From sequence record MW650886.1: a stretch of 64,000 nucleotides of DNA; one strand, written 5' to 3'. The stretch is from Escherichia phage vB_EcoM-ZQ1. Every line of letters begins with the position of its first letter. Position 1 is the first letter of the stretch. Made by a program: the position numbers and the translations under genes. Shown here piece by piece: positions 5,987 to 47,019 of this stretch. The notes beneath the pieces are model-generated. The model ran no database searches and was not told where the DNA came from. It saw only the letters and a list, made by a program, of their open reading frames with translations.

Positions 5987-6475
5987 ATGATGCTGTTAAT
6001 GAGCGTTCCACAGAACAAGATGACCCCTGCAACAGAGGGCAAGAATCACTTCAACATCTACAGCCGGAGCCAGACGGAACTCGGGCGCTTCCTCTCGCAT
6101 TTTACCCATCATCCAATGACTACCCATGAACATGGTGTGTTTAACTCCATGGAGGGGTACTGGTATTGGCTGAAGTATAGGGATGACAACCTGCGCCTGC
6201 TCGACGGTTATGAGGCCAAGCAATATGGACAGGGATTGGCGGCTTCCCGCGTCATTGTCCTGGACCCGTCTACCGAAGAATTCAAGCGCGATATCCTATT
6301 TGCAACTAGCATGAAACTCCAGACAATGCCTGAACGTCTGAAGATCAGATTGGCGTACAGTCGCCTACCCCTGATCCATGCATATGTTCAGAACGGGAAA
6401 TACAGTTTTCAAAACTCTATGGACTATATCATTGCCCACATTAATCGTCTCCGCATACAAGGAACTTTGAAATGA
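5987..6475 (+). CDS. hypothetical protein
   Basis: ORF track begins at TTG 5972; first ATG is at 5987. Confidence 0.45.
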   Translation: MMLLMSVPQNKMTPATEGKNHFNIYSRSQTELGRFLSHFTHHPMTTHEHGVFNSMEGYWYWLKYRDDNLRLLDGYEAKQYGQGLAASRVIVLDPSTEEFKRDILFATSMKLQTMPERLKIRLAYSRLPLIHAYVQNGKYSFQNSMDYIIAHINRLRIQGTLK

Positions 6476-7053
6476 AATTTCTACACACTATCGTCGACAC
6501 TTCTTATGACTGCACTGCTCATACCCCAGACCGTTCGCCTGTGTTTGTTCTGAACAAACTAGGTGAAGAGATCTGTGAACTGTCTGATGTGTTTCATGGC
6601 ATAGTATCTTCCGAGCCGTTGAATGGCGAAGTTGCTGATGTCATTATCTCTGCTATTGACCTTCTGTACGTCATGGATTATGACGACGTCCAATTGCGCG
6701 GCTCTCTGAACAAGGCCGAAATGATCGACTCTGTCATCAACCACATGGCGACAGTGAACGATATTTCTTCTAATCTGTTGGAAGAAGACTGGTTCCGTCT
6801 GATTGATCGTGATCCTCAAAAGCATCTGAATCTTATCCATCATTATCATGGCCGGATTATCCGATTGTGCAACCAGCCTTATCGCAGTCAAGACAGATTG
6901 GATCAACTCGTCAATGACCTAATCAAGCATGTTGCGCGCATGGGGTGTGGGGAAGGGGCGATACGTGGATCCTCTTTGATGGCCACTCGCATTAAAGTGG
7001 AGCACGCTATTGAACACAAGGTTGAAAAGTGGCGTACTGAATTTGGCTTATGA
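6472..7053 (+). CDS. MazG-like all-alpha nucleoside triphosphate pyrophosphohydrolase candidate
   Basis: ATGA overlap with the upstream gene; motifs LGEEICELSD (E-E-x-x-E) and GEVADVIISAIDLL (E-x-x-D) typical of MazG/HisE-type NTP-PPases. Confidence 0.4.
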   Translation: MKFLHTIVDTSYDCTAHTPDRSPVFVLNKLGEEICELSDVFHGIVSSEPLNGEVADVIISAIDLLYVMDYDDVQLRGSLNKAEMIDSVINHMATVNDISSNLLEEDWFRLIDRDPQKHLNLIHHYHGRIIRLCNQPYRSQDRLDQLVNDLIKHVARMGCGEGAIRGSSLMATRIKVEHAIEHKVEKWRTEFGL

Positions 7054-11649: not shown

Positions 11650-11892
11650 ATGAGCCCAGAATTTGAAAATCTGTTCGAGCGATGCTTCGAACCAGGTTCT
11701 GTGTCCGGTTACATGGACCGCCTTTGCACTGCCATTGTAATACGCCTTGCTGCCAAGGGTATCGTTGTCAACACCATTATCAACAATGGGAACAACTTTA
11801 TCATGCAGATGACTGATTATCACCACCGCACAGGCATCATCCAGGTGTCATGTGTTGACAACAGCATTATTGAATGGAGACAGTACGCATGA
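11650..11892 (+). CDS. hypothetical protein
   Basis: 80-aa ORF. Confidence 0.35.
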   Translation: MSPEFENLFERCFEPGSVSGYMDRLCTAIVIRLAAKGIVVNTIINNGNNFIMQMTDYHHRTGIIQVSCVDNSIIEWRQYA

Positions 11893-12488
11893 CAACTTAT
11901 GTAATCAATGGTGGTGATCTACTGAAAGCCGCCTGTAGCTTCAATCTGATCGACATCTTTGCCCACGGTGCCAACTGTTGGTCTACCATGGGCGCGGGCA
12001 TTGCTCTGCACATCGGTAACAACTTCCCAGCCCTGCGTGAAGTCGATGCGAACGACCCTCGTGGTCCAGAGCAACGCCTGGGTGGCATGTCCTATGCATT
12101 TGACCACAGCACTGGTGTCTGGGGCGCGAACCTCTACACTCAGTTTTATCCAGGTCCGAACGCTCGCATGCCGTCTGTCATCAGTTCTGTTCAGATGTTG
12201 TTTGAGCAGGTTCACGAAATTGTGGAAGCAACTAAAGACGAAACCGTCTATGTCGGCCTGCCTGCTATCGGTTGTGGTATTGGTGGTCTGAACCTCTACA
12301 GTGTAGTGCGCCATATCAATCGAATCTCTGAAAGCGTGTATGAAGAGACCCGCCGTCGTGTCGTCCCAGTCTTCTATATCAGGGAAGGAGACGGATTCGA
12401 TGATGATCTGATGGAACTTTCTCATCTGGACACAGAAGGTATCATGATTGTCGAAGATGAGCAAGAAATCATCGACGAGGAGGCGTAA
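11889..12488 (+). CDS. macro-domain protein (ADP-ribose binding/hydrolase family)
   Basis: ATGA overlap at 11889; motifs DIFAHGANCWSTMGAGIALHI (N-A-A-N ... G-G-G-V-like) and GLPAIGCGIGGL match the macro-domain signature. Confidence 0.65.
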   Translation: MTTYVINGGDLLKAACSFNLIDIFAHGANCWSTMGAGIALHIGNNFPALREVDANDPRGPEQRLGGMSYAFDHSTGVWGANLYTQFYPGPNARMPSVISSVQMLFEQVHEIVEATKDETVYVGLPAIGCGIGGLNLYSVVRHINRISESVYEETRRRVVPVFYIREGDGFDDDLMELSHLDTEGIMIVEDEQEIIDEEA

Positions 12489-13484: not shown

Positions 13485-13826
13485 ATGAAACGTTCGGTTG
13501 TTGTAAATGACATCACGAGATTGATAAACCTTGTCAAAGATGTGTTTCCACAACAGGTGGATGTCGAGTACGTGGGGAAGAACGGGAAGTGCTATCAGGT
13601 TGCTCTACTTCTGAAGCACGTGTATCCCCAAGCAGAGATACATTACAGTCAGACCGAAGGTCATGTGTATACTCTGATTGATGGGCATTACTACGACATC
13701 GACGGCATCCACTTCAGTGTCCCACCGGATACGTGTTTGCTCGAACACAACAGAGGCCATAAACCCCATCGCTGGCATAAAGGGTTTGTGAACGTACCGA
13801 TTTTAGAATGGTTGAGGAGACCATAA
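13485..13826 (+). CDS. hypothetical protein
   Basis: ATG at 13485 preceded by GGAGAGG and downstream of the terminator; the ORF-track start at 13398 lies inside the terminator. Confidence 0.4.
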
Positions 13827-14386
13827 TGGCAGGAATTGTGAAGTATCTGGGAGACACCCACCTTGGGCACAAGAAGATCTTCAAGCCCCGTGGGTTCGAT
13901 ACCCAAGAGGCGCATGATGCTGCAGTTATCGACAGTATCTTTCAGGGGCTGAAGTCTCGAGACGTCCTTGAACTTGCAGGCGACATCTGCTTCATCGGGG
14001 CTGAGGGGTTCATTCGCCTGATGCGCGAGGGTGCCAAGCGGAATATTGATGAGTTCAAGCGCCGCCCGGTTCCCGATGACTGGCGACCGAACTTTATCAT
14101 CAGGGTGGCGCAAGGCAACCATGACAGATTCAAGATGTTGATGCAGCTGTATCAAGAGGGATGGATTAGCTCCTTTGGTGCGATGTATGAGCGTGATACC
14201 CCGGTTGGTTGTGTGCTGACCACTCACGTTCCTTATCAATTAGGCCGCTGGGCTTATAATATCCATGGTCATCTTCACAGTAAAATGCGTGAAGAACGTG
14301 AATACCTGAACTGCAGCTGGGAACAATTCAAGCGCCCTGTGACATTGGCCGAGCTGCTCTACACCAATCTGGGGATTGAAATATGA
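13826..14386 (+). CDS. calcineurin-like metallophosphoesterase
   Basis: TAATG overlap start at 13826; motifs YLGDTHLGH (GDxHG), AGDICFIG (GDxx), QGNHD (GNHD/E), HGHLH. Confidence 0.65.
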
Positions 14387-15105: not shown

Positions 15106-15420
15106 ATGACCCCATTAAAAGAAATGTATGAGCGTCTGGCTGAACTACAGGCGAAGGAAAAGCGCTTCTCAGAAGAAGAGTCTGAAATCGCCGAGCTGAA
15201 CAACCTGATTGCCACTCGTGAGAAGTACCTGCATCGCTACATTAATCACCCGCCGCGCATGGTAGACCGCGTCAGCACTATCATGGACCTGGATGAAGTT
15301 ACTCCTGGCAAAGAAATCATTGTCAGGGAAGTCCACCAGATGGTCGCCATGGGTCAGATCTTTGGTCGTGCAGACCAAGACGACATGATCTTCCTCCTTG
15401 AAAAGAAACTGGTGATGTGA
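15106..15420 (+). CDS. hypothetical protein
   Basis: 104-aa ORF with AAGAGG RBS. Confidence 0.45.
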   Translation: MTPLKEMYERLAELQAKEKRFSEEESEIAELNNLIATREKYLHRYINHPPRMVDRVSTIMDLDEVTPGKEIIVREVHQMVAMGQIFGRADQDDMIFLLEKKLVM

Positions 15421-15926
15421 TGGCTATCAAACCCCGTATGTTATTTGCGCATATGCGCTCGGCTCATGCATACGCTCTGTCCAGCTATGCCCAGCGCCTG
15501 AAGGTCGGCTGTGTTATCGTTGACCCGCGTGTTGACCAGCCCCTGTCTATCGGTTGGAACGGGACTGCTCCTGGCGCTCCTAATGTCTGTGAGAAGGAAG
15601 TAGACGGTCAACTGGTATCGGTGGGTGTTATCCACGCCGAGGAGAATGCTCTGAGCAAACTCCCCCAGCACACTGAAGACTGTTGTGGCCTGGTGATGTT
15701 TGTCACTCATAGTCCATGCCCAGAGTGCACCCGTCGTATTATCGGCAGTGGCAAGATCGCTAAAGTATTCTATGACCGACCATATCGTATCATAGACGGC
15801 ATTATTGAAATGCTGGCTGCTGGGATTGAAGTGTATCGCATGGTCGATCAGATTGTTGTAGTCCAGCATTCTGTGAAGAACGGCGAACTGGTATCCACCC
15901 CTGTTTTAGTGAACCCTGACAAATAA
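15420..15926 (+). CDS. dCMP deaminase (cytidine/deoxycytidylate deaminase zinc-binding family)
   Basis: HAEENAL (H-A-E) and SPCPEC (P-C-x-x-C) zinc-binding motifs; start overlaps the upstream stop (GTG at 15417, ATG at 15420). Confidence 0.8.
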   Translation: MAIKPRMLFAHMRSAHAYALSSYAQRLKVGCVIVDPRVDQPLSIGWNGTAPGAPNVCEKEVDGQLVSVGVIHAEENALSKLPQHTEDCCGLVMFVTHSPCPECTRRIIGSGKIAKVFYDRPYRIIDGIIEMLAAGIEVYRMVDQIVVVQHSVKNGELVSTPVLVNPDK

Positions 15927-28751: not shown

Positions 28752-29087
28752 TTAAGATCTCATACCTTGTGGGATCAGATTAGTCCCGCAACGGCGTAAA
28801 AAGAAGTTTACGATTGAGTGATACTGGAACTTCGGGATGATCTCTACACCATCTTCCGTCGTATACCATTCCACTGTGTTGGTGCGCACTGGAAGGGGGA
28901 ATGACGGCAGATCCAGCTGTACGAGTTCACCCTCTTGGCATATCATACCAATTCCATATTCCTCCCAGATTTTACGATTGCTGAAGAACTCCAGAGTCTG
29001 CTCCGGACTCAGCTCAATCGCTTGTTTGGTGTGGCACACCTGTTTGGCGGCCTGCACCAGGCCAGCCATAAAATCATTGTGTGACAT
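28752..29087 (-). CDS. hypothetical protein
   Basis: 111-aa ORF. Confidence 0.45.
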   Translation of the reverse strand: MSHNDFMAGLVQAAKQVCHTKQAIELSPEQTLEFFSNRKIWEEYGIGMICQEGELVQLDLPSFPLPVRTNTVEWYTTEDGVEIIPKFQYHSIVNFFLRRCGTNLIPQGMRS

Positions 29088-29151
29088 GATGTGCTCCTGG
29101 TTTATATTCAGATCATAAAATTATACCCTATGACCCGCTTTATTGAATTAC

Positions 29152-30576
29152 CTAGAATTTCCAATTATTGACTGTTTGGGCTTTCTGCTCATCGCTGGCA
29201 GCAGCTCCGGACTTGTTGAGGTCATGTTTGATGTGTACGTTTTCGACATATTTGGCCTCAGCCTCAGTCAGGTCCTTCTTAACTTCATTCCAGTCCAGGT
29301 CAAACAGGATCTGTTTGTCTTGGTCCATACCAAACAGGAATGATTTCAGCTTCTGCTTGTTGGCATAACGGTTCTTGAGTATTGAGGCTCGGGCTTTCTT
29401 GACCGCCGCCAGTTCGTCGGGAGCATAGAATGCCATGATGAAGTCGGCCACCTTCGGAATACCGATAGCATCTGCCAAATCACTGATTCCACCATCAGTG
29501 CTATTCTGATTCTCACGATTGAACTGCATACCAGTCCATACAGGGACATCAAACTCAAATCCCAGCGCACGAAACTCACGAGCCACAGACGTGTAATAGA
29601 CGTTCGTGTTCTGCATCAGGTGGGCAGGCAGGCGCGAGGAAGCAGCTTCGCCAAGATAGTCAATAACGATAACATCAGGAGCACGACCAGTTGCCTGGAT
29701 GTACTCAAGGATATCGCGGCGGAATAAACCCGTGTGTCCAGCACCGGAAGGATATTCCTTGATGACGATATCACCCTTGGGCGCACCATCTTGGCGACTG
29801 CGGAGCTTCTCTATCGTTGCAATATACTCGTGCCTTGTGAGTTTCTCTAAAGACTCAAAGTCGCGACGCATGATACGGGCATCAAGACGGTGTCGCCAGA
29901 CGTTCTCGGCCACTTCAAGGGTGAAGACAAAGACGTTCAGCCCCTGCTCCGAGTACCCTGCGGTCAGGTCAATCAGCGTTGTGGTCTTACCTGCGTTGAT
30001 CGCGCCTGTTACGATGTTCAGTGTCTTCTTACCAACGCCACCACGTGTCGCCTTATTGAATATCTCAACTGCGAACGGGATCTTGGCCTCGTTGGAGTTC
30101 ATGTGGTCATACTGCTCTGCCGCCATCTCCCAATAGATGTGACCGAGGTATGAATCAAACCGGATCGCCAGGGCTTCCTGCAACATGGTCGGGATGTTGT
30201 TCATCTCGTCCTTGCGCTTCTCGTCACCGTAGATGTTGACGGCAGTCTTGATTGCGTTGTGTACGGCCTTTTGCCGCGCCCAAGCCTCGGTTTCCTTCGC
30301 CAGCCACTCTTCATTGAAGGTGTTGTCGTTGATGTTCTCCAGGGCAGATACCGCCTGGTCAAACACATATTCGTTCAGCTTTGTCCGTTCAAGAATTATA
30401 GATAGTGCTTCGACAGACGGGCGGGCATTGTACTCTGAGGTATAACTGTCAATCAGACCAAAGATGACCTTTTCGCCTTCGTTGTCAAAATAATCGGCTT
30501 TCAGGTACGGCAGGATCTTTCTTTGGTAATCTTCATTGTAAATCAACTGTGAAAGCACGACAGATTCGAGTAACAT
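29152..30576 (-). CDS. replicative DNA helicase (T4 gp41-like, DnaB family)
   Basis: 474 aa; Walker A GAINAGKTT; size and downstream-of-uvsX position match T4 gene 41. Confidence 0.85.
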   Translation of the reverse strand: MLLESVVLSQLIYNEDYQRKILPYLKADYFDNEGEKVIFGLIDSYTSEYNARPSVEALSIILERTKLNEYVFDQAVSALENINDNTFNEEWLAKETEAWARQKAVHNAIKTAVNIYGDEKRKDEMNNIPTMLQEALAIRFDSYLGHIYWEMAAEQYDHMNSNEAKIPFAVEIFNKATRGGVGKKTLNIVTGAINAGKTTTLIDLTAGYSEQGLNVFVFTLEVAENVWRHRLDARIMRRDFESLEKLTRHEYIATIEKLRSRQDGAPKGDIVIKEYPSGAGHTGLFRRDILEYIQATGRAPDVIVIDYLGEAASSRLPAHLMQNTNVYYTSVAREFRALGFEFDVPVWTGMQFNRENQNSTDGGISDLADAIGIPKVADFIMAFYAPDELAAVKKARASILKNRYANKQKLKSFLFGMDQDKQILFDLDWNEVKKDLTEAEAKYVENVHIKHDLNKSGAAASDEQKAQTVNNWKF

Positions 30577-30582
30577 TGGCCA

Positions 30583-30912
30583 CTACCCCACCAAAAATTT
30601 ATTATATTCCTGAGCATTACGCTGCATGAGGTCTACAAGGATATCCCCTGACACCTCAGTGAACAAGTCATTTTCTTTCAAATTCACAAACATCAGACGC
30701 AATGGTTTCTTCAATATATCAGTCACGAAAGACAGGCGGGGTTCGCCGTCCACTTCGTTGATGGCCACCTTGCCGAACCTGAATTGAACACCACGGAATT
30801 TGCCAGAAGTGATCTTGATGATCGCCAGCTGATCAGCACCAGGGTCGATGATTGTGTAGTTATTGGGGGAGTCTCCTCCCCCTCCACTGTTATTCGCTTG
30901 TGTTAATAACAT
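30583..30912 (-). CDS. hypothetical protein in the position of T4 gene 40
   Basis: small ORF between uvsX and gp41; ORF-track start 30963 overlaps uvsX, a later ATG is more likely. Confidence 0.4.
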   Translation of the reverse strand: MLLTQANNSGGGGDSPNNYTIIDPGADQLAIIKITSGKFRGVQFRFGKVAINEVDGEPRLSFVTDILKKPLRLMFVNLKENDLFTEVSGDILVDLMQRNAQEYNKFLVG

Positions 30913-31975
30913 GGTCCATTTGCTCCAGCATGTTAGCAGGCATAACAGTACCGTTAGAAACACCGAACATTTTCTTCACGTCATCGGCGAAGTTGACATT
31001 CTCCAGCAGCGGATACCAGAAATCATCATCCATCTGACGCTTCTGATATTTCTTTTCCTTCTCAGGATCGAAACCACCCTTGGTTGTACGCACATACCAA
31101 CCGGAAGACGGCATATCAACATAACCCAGAGCACGAGCGATCTCAAGCAGGCCGCTCCAGCGATCAATACCGCCGTTGTACAGTACCGTCACAGGGAGCT
31201 TGGCTTTCTCTTTGACATGGCGACCTTTCATGATGCTTATGTTGAAGTTCCAGCCCAGCAGATCTTTGTCTTCCTTCACCTGAGAACGGGTGATAAACCA
31301 GATCAAGTTGGAGGATAAGAAGCCCTGCTTGCCGCCTTTGATGTTAGGCTCGGCATATTGGTTGCCGATCTCATCGTAATAGGAGTTGATCCAAACACAC
31401 ACGAGATTTTTGCTATTGATTTCAGGAGTCATGACACGCCAGAAGCTGTTGAGGGCACGGGCGCGGGTCATGTCTTGAGTGTCGTTCCCTTTGATCGCAT
31501 CTTCAACTTCCTTGGTGGAGGGAAGTTGGCTGATAGAGTCGATGAAGATTATAACATGGTCGCCTTTCTTGACTTCCTGTAGGATCTGCAGCAAGCGGAT
31601 CTTGGTCTGTTCAACGTTGTCGATCGGTACGTACAGGACGCGGTCCATGTCAATGCCCATAGAGGTCCAGTAATCAGCGTTGGCACCCTTTTCCGAGTCA
31701 GCAAATACACAGATAGCATCAGGGAACTTGTCCATATAAGCCTTGACATCGACCAGGCCGAACATCGTTTTGAAGGTACGGGAATCACCCACCATCATCT
31801 TGATACCGGAGATCAGGCCGCCGTCAATACGCCCAGACCATGCGATATCGATCAGGGGAATACCAGTAGAACAGATGATAGACGGTTCCAGAGCGTCGGA
31901 TTTGGACAGCACTGAAGCCTGGTCATCGTGTTTCTTAGCAACCTTCAGCATGCGATCCATTAATGAACTGGCCAT
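30890..31975 (-). CDS. uvsX: UvsX recombinase (RecA/Rad51 family)
   Basis: 361 aa; extended collinear similarity to T4 UvsX from recall (GIPLIDIAWSGRIDGGL..., ICVFADSEKG..., VIIFIDSISQL..., MTRARALNSFWR...). Confidence 0.9.
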   Translation of the reverse strand: MASSLMDRMLKVAKKHDDQASVLSKSDALEPSIICSTGIPLIDIAWSGRIDGGLISGIKMMVGDSRTFKTMFGLVDVKAYMDKFPDAICVFADSEKGANADYWTSMGIDMDRVLYVPIDNVEQTKIRLLQILQEVKKGDHVIIFIDSISQLPSTKEVEDAIKGNDTQDMTRARALNSFWRVMTPEINSKNLVCVWINSYYDEIGNQYAEPNIKGGKQGFLSSNLIWFITRSQVKEDKDLLGWNFNISIMKGRHVKEKAKLPVTVLYNGGIDRWSGLLEIARALGYVDMPSSGWYVRTTKGGFDPEKEKKYQKRQMDDDFWYPLLENVNFADDVKKMFGVSNGTVMPANMLEQMDHVINTSE

Positions 31976-32502
31976 TTCACTTCCTCTTTGTTGTTAATCG
32001 TCGTTAGTAAGTCTACACCCATAACCTTCTGGGACAAAATGTTAACCGCCTCTTGGATGCTCTTCAGGGACATTGTCTCAACAAGTGACGATGCGTCATT
32101 ATGCCGGTCGGTTAGGTACATATTGCGCAGATTGTTGTAGTTCGTGCGGTTGATGCACGCAGTGTTCAGTGCTATATTCAGGATATACATCATCTGTTCA
32201 ATGGTTATATCCTTTGGTATAGCGTGGATGTAATAGATCGAGCCTTCAAAATAGACGTCTACCAGTTCATCTGGTATCTTGGCCCCACCACCGGCATAAT
32301 CTTCGATCATCCTGAACAGAGACTCTGGTTGCTCGCTGGCGATCTTATGCGTAACAGTCGCCGAAAGACCGTCGCCCGGTTTAACAGGCCTGGTGTATTC
32401 GGTAAGGAATACATTATGTCCGCCGCCGATGATGTGCTCGGCGAATTTGGAGGATGCCTGAGCAGCGTTCTCCGCATGGTATGAAACGACGACTGTAAAC
32501 AT
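31960..32502 (-). CDS. hypothetical protein (in the position of T4 beta-glucosyltransferase, no recognisable similarity)
   Basis: 180-aa ORF coupled between the NTP-PPase-like gene and uvsX. Confidence 0.45.
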   Translation of the reverse strand: MFTVVVSYHAENAAQASSKFAEHIIGGGHNVFLTEYTRPVKPGDGLSATVTHKIASEQPESLFRMIEDYAGGGAKIPDELVDVYFEGSIYYIHAIPKDITIEQMMYILNIALNTACINRTNYNNLRNMYLTDRHNDASSLVETMSLKSIQEAVNILSQKVMGVDLLTTINNKEEVKWPVH

Positions 32503-33056
32503 TAGAACTCCAGGGTCAGAGGGGTTTCTGCGGACTTGTCGTAATCCGCACCACCAGAAGCACGCAGACGATTGCGATCGTTCTTGCGTTTGTGTGCCAG
32601 TATGTAAGTCTCAATGTCGATCTCCATATAAGAACACGCAGACGACAGGAAGAACATGAGAGTCTCAACGCAAGGATCGTTCATGAATTGCCCAAGGCGG
32701 TACGTAACATTGCGATGCCCTACAACACCCAAAGCAGATGGGGTGAATTCGCGATTACTAAGGACTTCAAATTCTTCTTCGATCTCACCTTTGGTGCGGT
32801 CCACAAGGATGAAGCACAACATGAAGTGTACCACGTCCACCAGCTCATAAACTGCGTTCGTATGGTCAAACCCGATGTCGTTGCCATAGACCTTCCAGTC
32901 ACGGGTGGTTTCATCAAGGAACTCTGCCCACTCACGATAGATAGAGTTGATGACTGCGTTCTGACTCCATACATTCTTCCACTCTTCCCCAAAGTAGGCC
33001 ACGTTAGTGGCCTTTTGGAGTTCGAGCAGGCTTTTGATATGTCCTGCTGTGATCAT
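32502..33056 (-). CDS. all-alpha NTP pyrophosphatase candidate (dimeric dUTPase/dCTPase-like)
   Basis: acidic helix motifs (FGEEWKNVW ... YREWAEFLDE); ATGA-coupled to dNMP kinase; family assignment tentative. Confidence 0.4.
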   Translation of the reverse strand: MITAGHIKSLLELQKATNVAYFGEEWKNVWSQNAVINSIYREWAEFLDETTRDWKVYGNDIGFDHTNAVYELVDVVHFMLCFILVDRTKGEIEEEFEVLSNREFTPSALGVVGHRNVTYRLGQFMNDPCVETLMFFLSSACSYMEIDIETYILAHKRKNDRNRLRASGGADYDKSAETPLTLEF

Positions 33057-33622
33057 TTACGTTCTCCGTAGAATTTAACGAACGGTTCCCAACCATCAAA
33101 TGGATTGAGGAATTCGTAGTCCACTTTCATTTGGTCAATGAAAGCCTCTATATCGTCCTCTATGATACCAGCACGGTCGGCCTTTGAAATACGGGTGATA
33201 GGGCATTTCGTACTCAGCGCCCATTCATATTCCTGAGGGGTACGCAGATCACTCACGATATAATGGACGTGGGGGTTCTGCTCTACCAGAGGAAGCTGGA
33301 AGCGCTTGAAGAATGCCAGGAACAGATCGGGTTGTACGTAACGCAAGCCCGTATCGCTGCCTAGATGAAGCCAGATCTGCCGTGGAGTTAAGCCCTTGGG
33401 ATTATCAGGGTGCACGTAAGGAACGTCCTTCACGGCATCCTCTACCTCCGCTGGGAGCCATGGGTAGATGTAGTTGGCTACACGGCGCAGTTCATCAGAG
33501 AAAGAAAGGCGCTGTATGTCCATATCACCCTGTAAGTGGTGGTAACTGATCAGGGACTCCAAACAGAAGTCCTTACCGGAGCGCTTGCGCCCCGTAAAGA
33601 ATTCAAGATTTGGGTACATCAT
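33053..33622 (-). CDS. deoxynucleoside monophosphate kinase (T4 gp1-like)
   Basis: N-terminal P-loop FFTGRKRSGKD resembles the T4 gp1 signature. Confidence 0.7.
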   Translation of the reverse strand: MMYPNLEFFTGRKRSGKDFCLESLISYHHLQGDMDIQRLSFSDELRRVANYIYPWLPAEVEDAVKDVPYVHPDNPKGLTPRQIWLHLGSDTGLRYVQPDLFLAFFKRFQLPLVEQNPHVHYIVSDLRTPQEYEWALSTKCPITRISKADRAGIIEDDIEAFIDQMKVDYEFLNPFDGWEPFVKFYGERK

Positions 33623-34665
33623 ACTACACCTTCCAGGAACTTAGGATCAATGATCTTGCGGTCAACCGGGGAATGGGTGAGCGCGGTGTTCAAGCCATGA
33701 TCCTGAATCAGGTCCAGGTTAATGAGCTTTTCGTTCAGTTTACAGTGCAGACAGTACGCCATCTGTACAATCAGGCCGCGATCCGCATCGTATTCCTTCA
33801 GGTGAGCAACCACAGTTTCCCACGGGCTACCGATATCACAGTGATGAAGCACACCAGTGAACAGATTGCGGATATGGTTCTGGTTGGTCACGTTCGTGAA
33901 GTGAATCATGGAGTTGATGAACCCAGCTTCTACTTTGGTGTCCTTCGTGATCTTTCCCAGCTGCTTCTGGCTGACTTCATTGTTGTAGTAATGAAGATTG
34001 TTAGAGAATAGCTTGTACTGACCGACATCAACATCCAGCACCCGAGCAATCACTTCCTGAAGAATAGAGAACTCAATGAAGTTAATTGAACTCATCCCCC
34101 ACAGAACATCCTGTGAGCGGTTGATGACCGTCAGGTTCAGACGACCTTCAACGATGGCGAACAACAGAGCCAGGTTACACACCATGTCCTTAGTCTTTGC
34201 TTCGCCGCTCTCGCTGAACTTCGCCAGACCAGCATCCGAATCTAGAGCCGGGTCATAGATGGTGAGGTACGCCTGGCGAGTGTTTGGGTTCTTGCGCAGG
34301 CGGTTGATAACGCTATCCAGCTGGCCATGGGCGTACAGACGCGGACCATAAGCAGCTCGCCATGTTACCCCATCATCCGAAAAGTTAGCAGCGCGAGGCA
34401 ATACGCGTGACAGGAACTTTATGTCGTTGCGACCTGACAACACCCAGAAGGTCTCGCCGATGGCAGCGATAGCCGATGAGTTGCGACCTTCAACGGAGAG
34501 CCAGCGGTCACGAATATCGGAAACAGTGATCGTCACACCATCAAGGAAGCGGGTGCTATCAGTATTGATTTCAGCATTACCAGGATCAGATTCGATCCCG
34601 AATTCACGGATAGCCAAGACAGCCTGCTTCAGCATGTCATTGTTGTTAATTGCTTTGATTTCCAT
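33619..34665 (-). CDS. thymidylate synthase / pyrimidine hydroxymethylase family enzyme with about 100-aa C-terminal extension
   Basis: ThyA-fold motifs: ETFWVLSGRND, RKNPNTRQAYLTIYDP, catalytic-Cys region DMVCNLALLF (VCN instead of PCH), NRSQDVLWGMSSINF (R-S-x-D ... N); occupies the T4 gene 42 position. Confidence 0.75.
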   Translation of the reverse strand: MEIKAINNNDMLKQAVLAIREFGIESDPGNAEINTDSTRFLDGVTITVSDIRDRWLSVEGRNSSAIAAIGETFWVLSGRNDIKFLSRVLPRAANFSDDGVTWRAAYGPRLYAHGQLDSVINRLRKNPNTRQAYLTIYDPALDSDAGLAKFSESGEAKTKDMVCNLALLFAIVEGRLNLTVINRSQDVLWGMSSINFIEFSILQEVIARVLDVDVGQYKLFSNNLHYYNNEVSQKQLGKITKDTKVEAGFINSMIHFTNVTNQNHIRNLFTGVLHHCDIGSPWETVVAHLKEYDADRGLIVQMAYCLHCKLNEKLINLDLIQDHGLNTALTHSPVDRKIIDPKFLEGVV

Positions 34666-35336
34666 CAGATACTCCCAAAATCACGACAGAGGAATGCCAT
34701 CACAGCCTGGTCTACTGTTAGGCCGTGAGACTTCATCATACCCGCAGCCACCGTAGGGAACAAGTCTTTATGTCGTTGACGATGGTCATGAACTCTCTCC
34801 CACTTCTCGACCACCAGACTTTCATTGAAGTCCACACCGCCGTTACGTGATTTAACACGAGCGATACACGTTTCAAGAGGAGTGTCCATAAAGAGCACAA
34901 CCAATTCACGTGGTGGGCGTGTCAGACGGGGGATCCAAGAACTCAATAATGTGGATGGAATGATACCTTCGAAAATCACATCATATTTCAAGTATTCTGG
35001 TTGGTCAGCAATAGACAACGCGAACAACATCTGCTCAGTGTCCTTCAGGGAATCAACCCCCTTGGACTTCGACTTGTCATATTTACCGATACAGACCACG
35101 TTGAACGAAGGACAGACAGTCAGCATGACCTTGCCGTTATGGGTCACGACATACGCCTGAGGATCCCTCTCCGCCAGCTGAGACGGCACAGTGGATTTAC
35201 CGCTACCATTGGAGCCTTTGACGTAGTAGATTTGCCCTCGTGCTGGGTAGATCCCCTTTACGACGGGTGGTTTAAAGAATGTGTGGACGGGGCGCTTCAT
35301 CAGCCCCTTCAGGGAGTAGGACATAAACTGCTCCAA
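34665..35336 (-). CDS. P-loop kinase of unassigned specificity
   Basis: Walker A YYVKGSNGSGKST; coupled by 1-nt overlap to the ThyA-family gene. Confidence 0.55.
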   Translation of the reverse strand: MEQFMSYSLKGLMKRPVHTFFKPPVVKGIYPARGQIYYVKGSNGSGKSTVPSQLAERDPQAYVVTHNGKVMLTVCPSFNVVCIGKYDKSKSKGVDSLKDTEQMLFALSIADQPEYLKYDVIFEGIIPSTLLSSWIPRLTRPPRELVVLFMDTPLETCIARVKSRNGGVDFNESLVVEKWERVHDHRQRHKDLFPTVAAGMMKSHGLTVDQAVMAFLCRDFGSI

Positions 35337-35340
35337 TAAA

Positions 35341-35365
35341 CAAAAGGAGCTGCTATTATAGCAGC
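35341..35365 (-). terminator. rho-independent terminator on the minus strand (gctgcta-TAA-tagcagc then TCCTTTT)
   Basis: hairpin read directly, downstream of the stop at 35400. Confidence 0.5.
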
Positions 35366-35399
35366 CCCTTCATCTATTGAACAGTTTCTGAACTTAAAT

Positions 35400-36236
35400 T
35401 TACACAGCTTTCGCTTCAGCCAGAGCCTGTGGAAGCCATTCATTGATCGCCTTAACCAGAGACTCAGCATCAGACTCTTTGATCTTCTGACGTTTGGTGA
35501 AGGACTTGCCGTTCACATACAGACTGAAGCCCCAGCCACCGGAAACGATAGGCGCAACGTCGACATACGTATTGGTGCGGGCGTGAAGGTTTTCAGGGTT
35601 AGCCAGTTCGGTGACCGGGAACTGGAACCAACGCATGTCTGGGTTCACGTAGCTCAGGAACACGCTGGGAACAACACCAGCTTCAATCGCCGCCAAGACC
35701 GGACCGTGATCAGAAGCGCGAGCCACGTCAACCATTTCCTCACGTTTGGTGTGACGGCGTTTACGCTCTACCAGCGCCGCCTGCGGGGTCAGGGTCTTAC
35801 CCTTCGATGCTTCTTTCAACATAGAAGACGCCAAGGAACCGATTTTCGCGTCGGACGGCTGATTGCCTTCTTCCAGCGCCGCGTTGACTGCATCTTCAAC
35901 CGCGTCTACCGGGGCGTCGGACACTGAGGCTTCACATGCATCGGCAGAGATCGGTGCTTCAGCATCAATAGTTTCAGCGACTTTCAGGGATACTTCAGCT
36001 TGGGCTTGCTCTTGGGCTTGCGCCAGAGCCTGCTGAGTTTCTTCCTTCTCTTCGGCGCTCAGACCTTCAATCAGTTCGAAGCCGTTGGCAGCCTGAAGAA
36101 CACCTTCAACCATACGGCGCAGGGTAACGTTTCCGATGATCAGACCTGCTTCTTTGATTTCAGCCTGAATAGCAGCAACGTCTTTGCCTTCAATTTCAAT
36201 TTTGGTTCCAGAATCCACATGAAGAATATATGACAT
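35400..36236 (-). CDS. hypothetical protein with acidic Ala/Glu-rich linker
   Basis: 278-aa ORF; no assignable domain. Confidence 0.5.
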   Translation of the reverse strand: MSYILHVDSGTKIEIEGKDVAAIQAEIKEAGLIIGNVTLRRMVEGVLQAANGFELIEGLSAEEKEETQQALAQAQEQAQAEVSLKVAETIDAEAPISADACEASVSDAPVDAVEDAVNAALEEGNQPSDAKIGSLASSMLKEASKGKTLTPQAALVERKRRHTKREEMVDVARASDHGPVLAAIEAGVVPSVFLSYVNPDMRWFQFPVTELANPENLHARTNTYVDVAPIVSGGWGFSLYVNGKSFTKRQKIKESDAESLVKAINEWLPQALAEAKAV

Positions 36237-36307
36237 AATAAAAAACCCTTTCGTTATTAAGACCGTATCCGCGGCATATTGTTGTTCTGACTGTGTAGTG
36301 AGAACAT

Positions 36308-36335
36308 AATATACTGCATTTTCATAGATGTAAAC
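36308..36335 (-). promoter_or_regulatory. T4 early-type promoter candidate (GTTTAC -35, 16-nt spacer, TATATT -10) on the minus strand
   Basis: hexamers read on the reverse complement, about 70 nt upstream of the start at 36236 in an AT-rich region. Confidence 0.4.
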
Positions 36336-36426
36336 TACTTTTTATTGAAAAGAAAGTTAACACCTTAGTGTTATAAGGTGCGCGACCAAGCGGAGCGCGA
36401 ACTTGCGTGAATATTAACTTTCTACG

Positions 36427-46557: not shown

Positions 46558-47019
46558 CTACTCCGCCAGGGTGATCACAACCATATTTAAGACTGTGTCG
46601 ATAGCTCGGCCTGTTTCCTCTTCATGGAGGGTTTCGGCGCGGAGGTGCACGTCGGTGATGAAATTGTCGATGTGCATTGAAGTCAGGTACGGGCGGTGCT
46701 GGGATAATGGACGGTTGGCCATCACATAATTGCGCAGTGTGTTGAAGTCCTGATGAGAGCATTCTGTGGTATCGATACGGAGGAAGCGTTCGTTGTGTCT
46801 TGTCTTCAACTCAGTTGCTTTCCCGAGGTAGACCAGAGGTCCATTGCGACCGATACGGAACATGACATCAACAACAGACTTGAAGATTTCGCGTTCAATC
46901 AGTGCGGTGGGTGACCAGCAGATCTCTTCTTTGTCGTCGGCGTACAGGGTGTCGATCACCAGAGGAAGCTGAATGTAACCGAAGTTGTGCAGTGGGTTGG
47001 TAAGTACCTTGTTTGTCAT
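46558..47019 (-). CDS. GIY-YIG endonuclease candidate (T4 DenA / endonuclease II-like)
   Basis: LVYLGKATELKTRHNERF resembles the GIY-YIG core of T4 DenA; sits downstream of nrdA-nrdB as in T4. Confidence 0.45.
   Translation of the reverse strand: MTNKVLTNPLHNFGYIQLPLVIDTLYADDKEEICWSPTALIEREIFKSVVDVMFRIGRNGPLVYLGKATELKTRHNERFLRIDTTECSHQDFNTLRNYVMANRPLSQHRPYLTSMHIDNFITDVHLRAETLHEEETGRAIDTVLNMVVITLAE

What the first reader, a model, noticed from the sequence alone, without database searches (positions are those of the whole stretch)
31960..35336. Candidate pyrimidine-modification module in the T4 gene-42 position
Five coupled minus-strand genes (P-loop kinase, ThyA-family enzyme, dNMP kinase, all-alpha NTP-PPase, unknown 180-aa protein) sit directly upstream of uvsX-40-41. 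That is where T4 carries gene 42 (dCMP hydroxymethylase) and beta-gt. The ThyA-family member is divergent and the glucosyltransferase slot holds an unrelated protein, so this phage may make a modified pyrimidine other than glucosyl-hmC. A thymidine hypermodification route via 5-hmdU is one possibility. A DenA-like nuclease and dCMP deaminase elsewhere in the window fit a phage that discriminates its own DNA from host DNA.
Basis: partly seen in the sequence, partly recalled or inferred. Interest (0 to 1): 0.8.

Follow-up and report, generated by a model that had tools for sequence, protein, structure and literature searches.

The report
Known ViI-type thymidine hypermodification module

Summary
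Five translationally coupled minus-strand genes lie at 31960-35324, directly upstream of uvsX, a gene-40-slot ORF and gene 41. This is the slot where T4 carries beta-gt and gene 42. The window comes from an Agtrevirus phage (Ackermannviridae), 97-98% identical in DNA to phages YX22, RPN242 and fGh-Ecl02. The block is the syntenic orthologue of Salmonella phage ViI genes Vi01_057c-061c.

The "P-loop kinase" is the 5-hmdU DNA kinase (Pfam HMUDK_HMUD1, E 1.6e-108; 88% identical to ViI gp67, whose activity is biochemically proven). The ThyA-like protein belongs to the dUMP hydroxymethylase clade. It has the catalytic Cys163 and a uracil-specifying Asn195 where T4 gp42 has Asp. The other three genes are a T4 gp1-type dNMP kinase, a dimeric-dUTPase-family NTP pyrophosphatase and an ACT-like protein of unknown role.

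The later enzymes (serine:DNA transferase gp247, PLP decarboxylase gp226, gp160, gp243) lie outside the window. All four are present in the nearest relative, YX22.

The likely product is 5-(2-aminoethoxy)methyl-dU replacing part of the thymidine. The 5-hmdU reading is correct but already published (Kutter 2011; Lee 2018, 2021). Only the ACT-like protein and the substrate range of the pyrophosphatase remain open. Interest is low.

The parts
34665..35324 (-). 5-hydroxymethyl-dU DNA kinase (5-HMUDK), orthologue of ViI gp67 (Vi01_061c). It phosphorylates 5-hmdU already in the DNA polymer, giving 5-PmdU.
   Evidence: Pfam PF18748 HMUDK_HMUD1, E 1.6e-108, profile 1-195 of 196. 87.7% identity over 219 aa to ViI gp67 / YP_004327432. 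Walker A motif GSNGSGKS is visible in the translation. The ATG start at 35324 has a GGAG Shine-Dalgarno sequence. ViI gp67 kinase activity was shown in vitro (PMC8989533).
33619..34665 (-). ThyA-superfamily dUMP hydroxymethylase (dUMP + CH2-THF + H2O -> 5-hmdUMP), orthologue of Vi01_060c.
   Evidence: Thymidylat_synt E 1.1e-15 and phrog_3676 E 4e-183. 77% identity to the ViI orthologue. Cys163 aligns with E. coli Cys146. Asn195 aligns with E. coli Asn177 and T4 gp42 Asp179. The [FY]SDDG and xCN motifs (VCN here, PCN in Goe19 and YuA) and the C-terminal extension are shared with the SPO1-like Goe19 protein and YuA gp17. The best solved relative is MilA, a CMP hydroxymethylase (E 1.4e-17), ahead of true thymidylate synthases. 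It scores far below every NCBIfam thymidylate-synthase equivalog cut-off.
33053..33622 (-). T4 gp1-type dNMP kinase, inferred 5-hmdUMP -> 5-hmdUDP; orthologue of Vi01_059c.
   Evidence: phrog_139 deoxynucleoside monophosphate kinase, E 1.2e-47. 91% identity to ViI. P-loop GRKRSGKD aligns with T4 gp1 GVKRSGKD, and YIVSDLR with T4 YIVPDTR. No PDB sequence hit.
32502..33056 (-). All-alpha NTP pyrophosphatase of the dimeric-dUTPase family; inferred dUTPase, possibly also a dTTPase. Orthologue of Vi01_058c.
   Evidence: Pfam dUTPase_2, 36.9 bits against a cut-off of 22.9, profile 2-159 of 162. phrog_173 E 5.8e-40. In the alignment to C. jejuni dUTPase 1w2y, E42, E45, E71 and D74 fall on its E46, E49, E74 and D77. 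That these four are the metal ligands is from my memory of the structure paper. The ELVDxxHF motif is shared with T4 gp56.
31960..32502 (-). ACT-like phage protein (PF24021), function unknown. It is the positional orthologue of Vi01_057c, and its 3' end overlaps the uvsX start by 16 nt.
35343..35371 (-). Terminator-like hairpin (13 pairs, loop TATAATA, then a T-rich run) in the 75-nt spacer just upstream of the kinase start.
   Evidence: Found in the scan and read directly. A hairpin at the same position is present in ViI, Erwinia Ea2809 (several stem positions differ) and Vibrio K447 (a different GC stem followed by T6). Function not tested.
15417..15926 (+). dCMP deaminase, a distant accessory gene that supplies dUMP to the hydroxymethylase.
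   Evidence: HAE...PCxxC zinc motif at 15633-15728. dCMP_cyt_deam_1 E 9e-16. phrog_174 E 3e-53. tblastn hit with T4 Cd, E 2e-7. Its role in hmU phages is described in PMC8989533.

Best explanation
The block is the nucleotide-pool half, plus the first DNA-level enzyme, of the Ackermannviridae thymidine hypermodification pathway that ends in 5-(2-aminoethoxy)methyl-2'-deoxyuridine (5-NeOmdU).

Proposed flow:
1. The dCMP deaminase (15417-15926) and the dUTPase-family pyrophosphatase supply dUMP. The pyrophosphatase may also remove dUTP, and perhaps dTTP, from the pool.
2. The ThyA-like enzyme adds the methylene of CH2-THF to C5 of dUMP through Cys163. It resolves the intermediate with water rather than hydride, giving 5-hmdUMP.
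3. The gp1-type dNMP kinase makes 5-hmdUDP. Host NDP kinase makes 5-hmdUTP. The phage polymerase incorporates it opposite A.
4. The 5-hmdU DNA kinase phosphorylates the hydroxymethyl group in the DNA polymer, giving 5-PmdU.
5. Enzymes encoded outside the window finish the job. The gp247-type aGPT-Pplase2 attaches L-serine (O-SerT), and the gp226-type PLP enzyme decarboxylates it to 5-NeOmdU. The remaining 5-hmdU ends up as thymine by a route that is still unknown.

Shown experimentally for the ViI orthologues: step 4 and both reactions of step 5. Inferred here: steps 1-3, by homology, active-site residues and conserved gene order.

The ACT-like fifth protein has no assigned role. My best guess is an accessory or regulatory partner of this enzyme set or of UvsX.
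For: - Identity of the phage: the region is 96-98% identical in DNA to the closest Agtrevirus genomes, and megablast matches 266 phage records, almost all Ackermannviridae by name.
- Orthology and synteny with ViI Vi01_057c-061c: 56, 61, 91, 77 and 88% protein identity in the same order, upstream of uvsX, the 40-slot ORF and 41.
- HMUDK_HMUD1 match at E 1.6e-108. ViI gp67 (YP_004327432) is a proven 5-hmdU DNA kinase (PMC8989533).
- ThyA-like enzyme: Cys163 and Asn195, hydroxymethylase-clade motifs, nearest non-family homologues are YuA gp17 and an SPO1-like protein, best PDB match is MilA, and it fails all thymidylate-synthase equivalog cut-offs.
- The rest of the pathway is present in relatives. 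gp247 and gp226 homologues give the same Escherichia, Enterobacter, Shigella and Dickeya record counts as this region's DNA search (28, 3, 6 and 19). In the nearest relative YX22, gp226, gp247, gp160 and gp243 homologues are 92, 90, 83 and 47% identical to ViI.
- The block order (HMUDK, ThyA, dnk, dUTPase_2, fifth ORF, UvsX) is kept in Erwinia phage Ea2809, Vibrio phage K447 and a divergent metagenomic contig. A shorter 3.5-kb contig shows the dUTPase_2, ACT_phage, UvsX part.
- Literature: CBA120 does not incorporate 3H-thymidine, and the ThyA homologues of CBA120, ViI and AG3 cluster with hmdU synthases (PMC3184105). A 301-Da nucleoside replaces about 40% of T in ViI, CBA120, CBA6 and Vibrio phage 1.255.O, and Ag3, SKML-39 and LIMEstone are listed as 5-HMUDK phages (PMC5889632). 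5-NeOmdU was confirmed in a Taipeivirus (bioRxiv 10.64898/2026.05.19.726188). A review states that the modification genes are conserved across the family (PMC11721090).
Against: - No chemistry exists for this phage, and in the papers I could read none exists for any Agtrevirus. The final product is inferred by phylogenetic bracketing.
- The downstream enzymes are not in the 64-kb window, so their presence in this particular genome is inferred from relatives 97-98% identical in DNA.
- I found no report of a direct assay of the ViI-type ThyA homologue, dNMP kinase or NTP pyrophosphatase.
- The structure model of the ThyA-like protein was too poor to use (pLDDT 49.7).
- The gp243-type second kinase in YX22 is only 47% identical to ViI and carries an extra N-terminal domain, so some lineage-specific variation exists.
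- The ACT-like protein has no functional evidence at all.
Confidence: 0.9

Rival explanations
1. Ordinary thymidylate supply. The ThyA homologue is a divergent but normal thymidylate synthase, the P-loop protein is a thymidylate or dNMP kinase, and the block simply boosts dTTP for replication.
For: Database annotations call the proteins 'thymidylate synthase' and 'putative thymidylate kinase'. The ThyA homologue keeps the catalytic Cys, the Arg-Ser-x-Asp motif and Asn177-equivalent that a thymidylate synthase also needs. Virion DNA of ViI still has about 60% ordinary T (PMC5889632).
Against: The kinase matches the dedicated 5-hmdU DNA kinase family at E 1.6e-108 and is 88% identical to an enzyme shown to phosphorylate 5-hmdU in DNA. 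The ThyA homologue scores 16-58 bits against thymidylate-synthase equivalog cut-offs of 108-427. It lacks the equivalents of Trp80, Trp83 and His147 and the thymidylate-synthase C-terminus. It groups with hmdU-phage enzymes. CBA120 excludes 3H-thymidine (PMC3184105).
Confidence: 0.02
2. A cytosine pathway as in T4. The ThyA homologue is a dCMP hydroxymethylase occupying the gene-42 slot, and the phage makes a 5-hmC derivative.
For: The slot matches T4 gene 42, upstream of uvsX. The best solved relative, MilA, hydroxymethylates a cytosine nucleotide.
Against: The specificity position is Asn195, as in uracil-specific enzymes. T4 gp42 has Asp there, and in the pairwise alignment MilA has Asp one position before it. 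T4 gp42 and beta-gt give no significant tblastn hit in the window. A dCMP deaminase, which would drain dCMP, is encoded. The adjacent kinase is specific to the 5-hmdU family. CBA120 does not substitute hmdC (PMC3184105).
Confidence: 0.01
3. The 5-hmdU front end is the same, but this phage stops at 5-hmdU (as SPO1 does) or makes a final adduct different from 5-NeOmdU.
For: The downstream genes are not in the window. No Agtrevirus chemistry was found. The gp243-type kinase differs markedly in YX22 (47% identity, extra domain). The level of substitution varies between genera: about 40% in ViI and 16% in the Taipeivirus phiHS2.
Against: A 5-HMUDK is needed only if 5-hmdU is processed further. gp247 and gp226 homologues in the nearest relative are 90-92% identical to the ViI enzymes that fix the serine and decarboxylation chemistry. 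Vibrio phage 1.255.O, whose relatives share only 40-50% identity in these enzymes, still makes the same 301-Da nucleoside.
Confidence: 0.06

Closest known systems
Salmonella phage ViI (Kuttervirus) 5-NeOmdU pathway: Vi01_057c-061c including gp67 5-HMUDK, plus gp160, gp226, gp243 and gp247 (Lee et al. 2018, 2021)
   Same: Same five genes in the same order and strand, in the same position upstream of uvsX and 41. Protein identities are 56-91%. The same downstream enzymes are present in the nearest relative.
   Different: Different subfamily (Aglimvirinae, Agtrevirus). The C-terminal third of the ThyA-like protein is only 47-50% identical, against 86-90% for the catalytic core. The ACT-like and NTP pyrophosphatase proteins are the most diverged. 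The gp243 homologue in YX22 is longer and only 47% identical. No direct chemistry for this genus was found.
Bacillus hmU phages (SPO1 group): dUMP hydroxymethylase gp29, dCMP deaminase, dTTPase/dUTPase, dNMP kinase
   Same: The same pre-replicative logic of replacing dTTP with 5-hmdUTP (PMC8989533). The ThyA-like enzyme shares the clade motifs and about 28-34% identity with the SPO1-like Goe19 protein.
   Different: SPO1 keeps 5-hmdU in the virion and has no aGPT-Pplase (PMC5889632). Its genes are arranged differently.
Phage T4 hmC system: gp42 dCMP hydroxymethylase, gp56 dCTPase/dUTPase, gp1 dNMP kinase, alpha- and beta-glucosyltransferases
   Same: The same strategy: a pyrophosphatase clears the canonical dNTP, a ThyA-family hydroxymethylase makes the modified dNMP, a broad dNMP kinase follows, and DNA-level decoration comes last. 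The hydroxymethylase occupies the same slot upstream of uvsX. Motif-level similarity exists to gp1 and gp56.
   Different: The base is uracil, not cytosine (Asn195 against Asp179). There is no detectable gp42 or beta-gt homology by BLAST. Decoration is by phosphorylation and amino-acid transfer, not glucosylation. In T4 genes 1 and 56 lie far from gene 42.
Pseudomonas phages M6 and YuA (5-NedU) and PaMx11 (5-AcNmdU) hypermodification clusters
   Same: 5-HMUDK plus dUMP hydroxymethylase plus aGPT-Pplase2 plus PLP enzyme. YuA gp17 is among the closest non-Ackermannviridae ThyA homologues (E 8e-29).
   Different: Those clusters use glycine rather than serine and add a radical-SAM or flavin enzyme. 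They are compact siphovirus clusters, whereas here the pathway genes are scattered across a 150-kb genome.
MilA, CMP 5-hydroxymethylase of Streptomyces (PDB 5B6D, 5JNH)
   Same: The closest solved structure by sequence (E 1.4e-17). It is a hydroxymethylating ThyA-family enzyme of similar length.
   Different: It acts on a ribonucleotide cytosine substrate. In the pairwise alignment it has Asp one position before Asn195, across a one-residue gap. It is bacterial and part of an antibiotic pathway.

Membership tests
5-hmdU DNA kinase (5-HMUDK, Pfam PF18748) | Full-length match to the family profile above the curated cut-off | tested here: met
   361.1 bits against a cut-off of 27, E 1.6e-108, profile 1-195 of 196.
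5-hmdU DNA kinase (5-HMUDK, Pfam PF18748) | Orthology to a biochemically validated member | tested here: met
   87.7% identity over 219 aa to ViI gp67 (YP_004327432) at the syntenic position. Activity of gp67 was shown in PMC8989533.
5-hmdU DNA kinase (5-HMUDK, Pfam PF18748) | P-loop (Walker A) NTP-binding motif | tested here: met
   GSNGSGKS is present in the translation.
5-hmdU DNA kinase (5-HMUDK, Pfam PF18748) | Genomic association with a dUMP hydroxymethylase and, elsewhere in the genome, an aGPT-Pplase | tested here: met
   Overlaps the ThyA-like gene by 1 nt. gp247 and gp160 homologues are present in the nearest relative YX22. They are not in the window itself.
5-hmdU DNA kinase (5-HMUDK, Pfam PF18748) | ATP-dependent phosphorylation of 5-hmdU within DNA | not testable with these tools
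   Needs an enzyme assay on 5-hmdU DNA (for example SP8 DNA).
dUMP hydroxymethylase clade of the ThyA superfamily | ThyA/Thymidylat_synt domain with the catalytic cysteine and the Arg-Ser-x-Asp phosphate- and base-binding motif | tested here: met
   PF00303, 58 bits against a cut-off of 24.3. C163, R183, S184, D186, H225 and Y227 align with E. coli C146, R166, S167, D169, H207 and Y209.
dUMP hydroxymethylase clade of the ThyA superfamily | Uracil-specifying Asn (E. coli Asn177) rather than the Asp of cytosine-specific enzymes | tested here: met
   Asn195 is in that column and T4 gp42 has Asp there. It is invariant in six hydroxymethylase-clade sequences.
dUMP hydroxymethylase clade of the ThyA superfamily | Closer to known or predicted dUMP hydroxymethylases than to thymidylate synthases | tested here: met
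   YuA gp17 E 8e-29 and SPO1-like Goe19 E 6e-26, against T4-type td at about E 1e-4. Shared [FY]SDDG and xCN motifs and C-terminal extension. The published tree groups AG3, ViI and CBA120 with phiW-14, SPO1 and YuA (PMC3184105).
dUMP hydroxymethylase clade of the ThyA superfamily | The product is 5-hmdUMP (water addition), not dTMP (hydride transfer) | not testable with these tools
   Needs an enzyme assay. The AlphaFold model was too poor for active-site inspection (pLDDT 49.7).
Canonical thymidylate synthase (ThyA) | Score above the NCBIfam equivalog cut-offs; cofactor-shielding Trp80 and Trp83, the Pro-Cys-His motif and the closing C-terminus | tested here: not met
   16-58 bits against cut-offs of 108-427. 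The Trp80 and Trp83 columns hold other residues, the motif is VCN rather than PCH, and the thymidylate-synthase C-terminus is replaced by an unrelated tail of about 110 aa.
T4 gp42-type dCMP hydroxymethylase | Asp at the base-specificity position; detectable similarity to gp42 | tested here: not met
   Asn195 in place of Asp179. No significant tblastn hit of gp42 in the window. T4 gp42 structures did not appear among the PDB hits.
T4 gp1-type dNMP kinase | Family profile match and the gp1 P-loop GxKRSGKD | tested here: met
   phrog_139 E 1.2e-47. GRKRSGKD aligns with T4 GVKRSGKD, and YIVSDLR with YIVPDTR. Overall similarity to T4 gp1 is only at motif level, and there is no PDB hit.
T4 gp1-type dNMP kinase | Phosphorylates 5-hmdUMP | not testable with these tools
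   Inferred from position and from the hmU-phage pathway (PMC8989533).
Dimeric dUTPase / all-alpha NTP pyrophosphatase (Pfam dUTPase_2) | Profile match above the cut-off and the four acidic metal ligands | tested here: met
   36.9 bits against a cut-off of 22.9. E42, E45, E71 and D74 align with C. jejuni dUTPase E46, E49, E74 and D77. Their role as ligands is recalled from the literature.
Dimeric dUTPase / all-alpha NTP pyrophosphatase (Pfam dUTPase_2) | Substrate range: dUTP only, or also dTTP | not testable with these tools
   Kutter et al. proposed dTTPase activity by analogy with T4 gp56 (PMC3184105). I found no report of a test.
ACT (ligand-binding regulatory) domain | Beta-alpha-beta-beta-alpha-beta fold with specific similarity to ligand-binding ACT domains | tested here: inconclusive
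Complete ViI-type 5-NeOmdU pathway | aGPT-Pplase2 (serine:DNA transferase), PLP decarboxylase, aGPT-Pplase1 and the second kinase all encoded | tested here: inconclusive
   None is in the window. All four are in the nearest relative YX22, at 90, 92, 83 and 47% identity. gp247 and gp226 are conserved across the family. The rest of this phage's genome was not available.

The most novel reading that the evidence does not exclude
The only uncharacterised piece is the ACT-like protein at 31960-32502. It occurs only in Ackermannviridae-type phages and, in the loci examined, always lies between the NTP pyrophosphatase gene and uvsX. The most novel reading not excluded is that it is a dedicated component of the modification system. 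It could be a small-molecule-sensing regulator of the hydroxymethylase or kinase set. It could be an inhibitor of a host enzyme such as thymidylate synthase or a glycosylase that attacks 5-hmU. Or it could be a factor in the still-unknown conversion of leftover 5-hmdU to thymine, which sets the partial, sequence-dependent modification pattern.
Probability: 0.1. Interest if true: 0.45.

Novelty: already known. Interest (0 to 1): 0.1.

Why it matters
This module explains why Ackermannviridae DNA resists many restriction enzymes. That matters for phage therapy, because it affects host range and evasion of defence systems. It also matters for sequencing and cloning of these phages. For this window, though, the result only adds one more near-identical copy of a published system.

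Two practical points follow. First, the 5-hmdU DNA kinase is widely mislabelled 'terminase small subunit' in RefSeq and PHROG-based annotations. Second, three parts of the published pathway still lack direct evidence: the activity of the ViI-type ThyA homologue, the substrate range of the NTP pyrophosphatase, and any role for the ACT-like protein.

Tried and rejected
- I searched the window by tblastn for the ViI downstream enzymes gp226, gp243 and gp247. None was found. The gp160 homologue in ViI and YX22 lies beyond the stretch collinear with the window. These genes lie elsewhere in the genome.
- AlphaFold of the ThyA-like protein on a 6-sequence alignment gave pLDDT 49.7. This was too poor for a fold search, so none was run.
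- A profile search of 1.84 billion representative proteins found only 17 members and no annotated relative. One 1702-aa hit (P0023) has no Pfam domain and looks like chance.
- PADLOC gave nothing meaningful for any of the five proteins.
- PDB sequence searches found no hit for the dNMP kinase or for the DenA-like ORF.
- T4 gp42, beta-gt and gp40 show no significant similarity to anything in the window. The shared slot is therefore positional, not evidence of descent from gene 42.
- The sigma-70 promoter scan of 29000-37600 was not enriched over shuffles (14 found, 10.5 expected), so I draw no promoter conclusion.
- The EcoSal review by Hutinet et al. 2021 could not be retrieved.
- I rejected the database label 'terminase small subunit' for the kinase. 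ViI has its own small terminase next to the large terminase (Vi01_162c).

Full report
**What is in the sequence**

Between 31960 and 35336 the minus strand carries five ORFs of 223, 348, 189, 184 and 180 codons. Each matches a protein family far beyond chance:

| Coordinates (-) | Match |
|---|---|
| 34665-35336 | Pfam HMUDK_HMUD1 "5-hmdU DNA kinase", E 1.6e-108, full profile |
| 33619-34665 | Thymidylat_synt, E 1.1e-15; phrog_3676, E 4e-183 |
| 33053-33622 | phrog_139 dNMP kinase, E 1.2e-47 |
| 32502-33056 | dUTPase_2, E 5.8e-9, above the curated cut-off; phrog_173, E 5.8e-40 |
| 31960-32502 | PF24021 "Phage ACT-like domain", E 3e-78 |

The genes overlap by 1, 4, 4, 1 and 16 nt, and the last overlap runs into uvsX, so "coupled" is accurate.

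The kinase most likely starts at the ATG at 35324, not the TTG at 35336. That ATG is preceded by GGAG and matches the start of ViI gp67 and of annotated relatives.

Downstream lie uvsX (30890-31975), a 109-codon ORF in the gene-40 slot, and a gp41-type helicase (29152-30576). The gene-40-slot ORF shows no detectable similarity to T4 gp40.

T4 reads 41-40-uvsX-segA-beta-gt-42 on one strand, so the positional comparison with gene 42 is correct.

**Where the window comes from**

The region is 96-98% identical in DNA to nine phage genomes: Enterobacter phage fGh-Ecl02, Escherichia phages RPN242, YX22, LHE287, PC3, PH4, A221 and AV101, and Salmonella phage vB_CECAV_050. It is 92% identical to Shigella phage Ag3. 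Megablast matches 266 phage records, almost all Ackermannviridae by name.

The record of a close relative gives the taxonomy Ackermannviridae; Aglimvirinae; Agtrevirus. The right-hand 25 kb of the window gives the same ranking of relatives.

**Orthology with the studied system**

In Salmonella phage ViI the genes upstream of uvsX are, in order:
- Vi01_057c (unknown)
- Vi01_058c (NTP pyrophosphatase)
- Vi01_059c (dnk)
- Vi01_060c (thyA)
- Vi01_061c (YP_004327432)

[quoted passage not shown] It was shown in vitro to phosphorylate 5-hmdU in DNA (PMC8989533).

The five window proteins are 56, 61, 91, 77 and 88% identical to these, full length and in the same order.

The same block order (kinase, ThyA, dnk, NTP pyrophosphatase, small ORF, UvsX, small ORF, helicase) is kept in Erwinia phage Ea2809, Vibrio phage K447 and a divergent metagenomic contig. 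A shorter contig shows the dUTPase_2, ACT_phage, UvsX part.

**The ThyA-like enzyme**

I aligned it with E. coli ThyA, T4 gp42, YuA gp17 (annotated as a putative deoxyuridylate hydroxymethyltransferase) and the thyA homologue of an SPO1-like Okubovirus. The findings:
- It keeps the catalytic cysteine (C163 = E. coli C146) and R183/S184/D186, H225 and Y227.
- At the base-specificity position it has Asn195 (E. coli Asn177). T4 dCMP hydroxymethylase has Asp179 in that column. This points to uracil, not cytosine.
- With the YuA and SPO1-like proteins it shares [FY]SDDG in place of the thymidylate-synthase Trp80/Trp83 segment, xCN (VCN here, PCN in the other two) in place of PCH, a one-residue insertion before Asn195, and a C-terminal extension of about 110 residues in place of the thymidylate-synthase C-terminus.

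Its nearest homologues outside Ackermannviridae are in phages known or predicted to make 5-hmdU: YuA (E 8e-29) and the SPO1-like phage (E 6e-26). T4-type td scores about E 1e-4.

The best solved relative is the hydroxymethylase MilA (E 1.4e-17), ahead of all thymidylate synthases. The protein reaches only 16-58 bits against thymidylate-synthase equivalog cut-offs of 108-427.

Only one ThyA-family locus per listed Ackermannviridae genome was detected.

A structure model was too poor to add anything (pLDDT 49.7).

**The other three proteins**

*dNMP kinase.* It has the T4 gp1 P-loop (GRKRSGKD against GVKRSGKD) and the YIVxDxR motif. Beyond those motifs it resembles gp1 only weakly.

*NTP pyrophosphatase.* It belongs to the dimeric dUTPase family. 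Its E42, E45, E71 and D74 fall on E46, E49, E74 and D77 of the Campylobacter enzyme in the alignment. That these are the metal ligands is from my memory of the structure literature. It shares the ELVDxxHF motif with T4 gp56 dCTPase/dUTPase. Kutter et al. proposed that the CBA120 orthologue is also a dTTPase, by analogy with gp56 (PMC3184105). I found no report of a test.

**The rest of the pathway**

ViI gp226, gp243 and gp247 have no homologue in the window. In ViI they lie 100 kb or more from the block, and gp160 lies about 50 kb away, beyond the stretch collinear with the window.

Homologues of gp247 and gp226 occur in 376 and 346 phage records. The Escherichia, Enterobacter, Shigella and Dickeya counts (28, 3, 6, 19) are the same as for this region's DNA search.

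In YX22, whose ThyA-like protein is 100% identical to the window's, local tblastn finds four homologues:

| ViI protein | Identity in YX22 | Note |
|---|---|---|
| gp226 | 92% | |
| gp247 | 90% | |
| gp160 | 83% | |
| gp243 | 47% | sits inside a 532-aa protein with an extra N-terminal domain |

A dCMP deaminase that can feed dUMP is in the window at 15417-15926.

**Mechanism**

The pre-replicative scheme for hmU and thymidine-hypermodifying phages is laid out in PMC8989533. It has five elements:
1. dCMP deaminase supplies dUMP.
2. dUMP hydroxymethylase makes 5-hmdUMP.
3. A phage dNMP kinase and host NDP kinase make 5-hmdUTP.
4. dTTP is depleted.
5. The polymerase incorporates 5-hmdU.

For ViI, three further steps were reconstituted with purified enzymes: gp67 forms 5-PmdU in DNA, gp247 adds serine (O-SerT), and gp226 decarboxylates it to 5-NeOmdU.

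How the remaining 5-hmdU becomes thymine is not known.

The window block therefore supplies steps 2-4 and the first DNA-level step. The kinase step is shown for the orthologue. The hydroxymethylase, dNMP kinase and pyrophosphatase steps are inferred.

**Comparison with the literature and novelty**

- Kutter et al. 2011 showed that CBA120 does not incorporate 3H-thymidine. [quoted passage not shown]
- Lee et al. 2018 found the 301-Da nucleoside replacing about 40% of T in ViI, CBA120, CBA6 and Vibrio phage 1.255.O. They listed Ag3, SKML-39 and LIMEstone among the 5-HMUDK phages and pointed out that 5-HMUDK is associated with the dUMP hydroxymethyltransferase.
- A 2024 review states that the modification genes are conserved across the family.
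- A 2026 preprint confirmed 5-NeOmdU in a Taipeivirus.

I found no direct chemistry for an Agtrevirus. However, the genus is bracketed by lineages that make the same base.

The finding is therefore a correct reading of a known system.

**Verdict**

- Observation: confirmed.
- Interpretation: supported.
- Novelty: already known.
- Interest: 0.1.
- Residual open question: the ACT-like protein.

Noticed in passing
window 34665-35324 (-); orthologues in many phage records: The 5-hmdU DNA kinase is labelled 'terminase small subunit' in many RefSeq and Pharokka records and in PHROG 800. ViI has a separate small terminase next to its large terminase (Vi01_162c). This is a propagated annotation error.
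   Followed up: partly
window 35343-35371 (-): A 13-pair hairpin with loop TATAATA and a T-rich tail sits between the upstream gene (35400-36236) and the kinase start. A hairpin at the same position is present in ViI, Erwinia Ea2809 (several stem positions differ) and Vibrio K447 (a different GC stem plus T6). It may act as a terminator or attenuator ahead of the module. This was not tested.
   Followed up: partly
window 46558-47019 (-): A 153-aa ORF (phrog_3902, unknown function) has a GIY-YIG-like motif that aligns with T4 DenA residues 42-67 (pairwise E 2e-4). It lies downstream of nrdB, as denA does in T4. It has no Pfam or PDB hit.
   Followed up: partly
window 6472-7053 (+): A second MazG-like pyrophosphatase (phrog_1247, E 2e-34; no Pfam hit). 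ViI and YX22 carry a third MazG-like gene next to the gp160 aGPT-Pplase1 gene. Any of the three could be the dTTP-clearing enzyme.
   Followed up: no
window 11874-12488 (+) and 13808-14386 (+): A Tk.4-like phosphatase (phrog_335) and a phosphoesterase (phrog_547) lie near the dCMP deaminase. Either might be the dTMPase of the hmU-phage scheme. This is speculation and was not examined.
   Followed up: no
L010 42436-44034 (Escherichia phage YX22, outside the window): The YX22 counterpart of the ViI second kinase gp243 is annotated as a 532-aa protein. Its C-terminal 300 aa are only 47% identical to gp243. Its N-terminal 230 aa or so look like a GIY-YIG homing-endonuclease domain (YHYTYRI...GRFYVGIRS). 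It could be a fusion or a mis-called start.
   Followed up: no
window 33619-34665 (-): The ThyA-like protein is 86-90% identical to ViI over residues 1-240 but only 47-50% over residues 241-348. Yet it is 93.7% identical full-length to some Salmonella phages (Se_EM1, dinky), and the identity distribution across genomes is bimodal. Two alleles of the C-terminal domain seem to circulate across genera.
   Followed up: partly
L015 1-1144 (Vibrio phage K447): In the Vibrio branch the gp247-type serine:DNA transferase gene lies only about 4 kb upstream of the kinase, instead of more than 100 kb away as in ViI. The pathway is more tightly clustered there.
   Followed up: no
window 31960-32040 (-), C-terminus of the ACT-like protein: The last 30 residues or so (AVNILSxKVxGxxLLTTINxxEEVKWPVH) are the most conserved part of the family, although that region is modelled with low confidence. 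Only the final five codons can be explained by the overlap with uvsX. This may be a docking motif.
   Followed up: no
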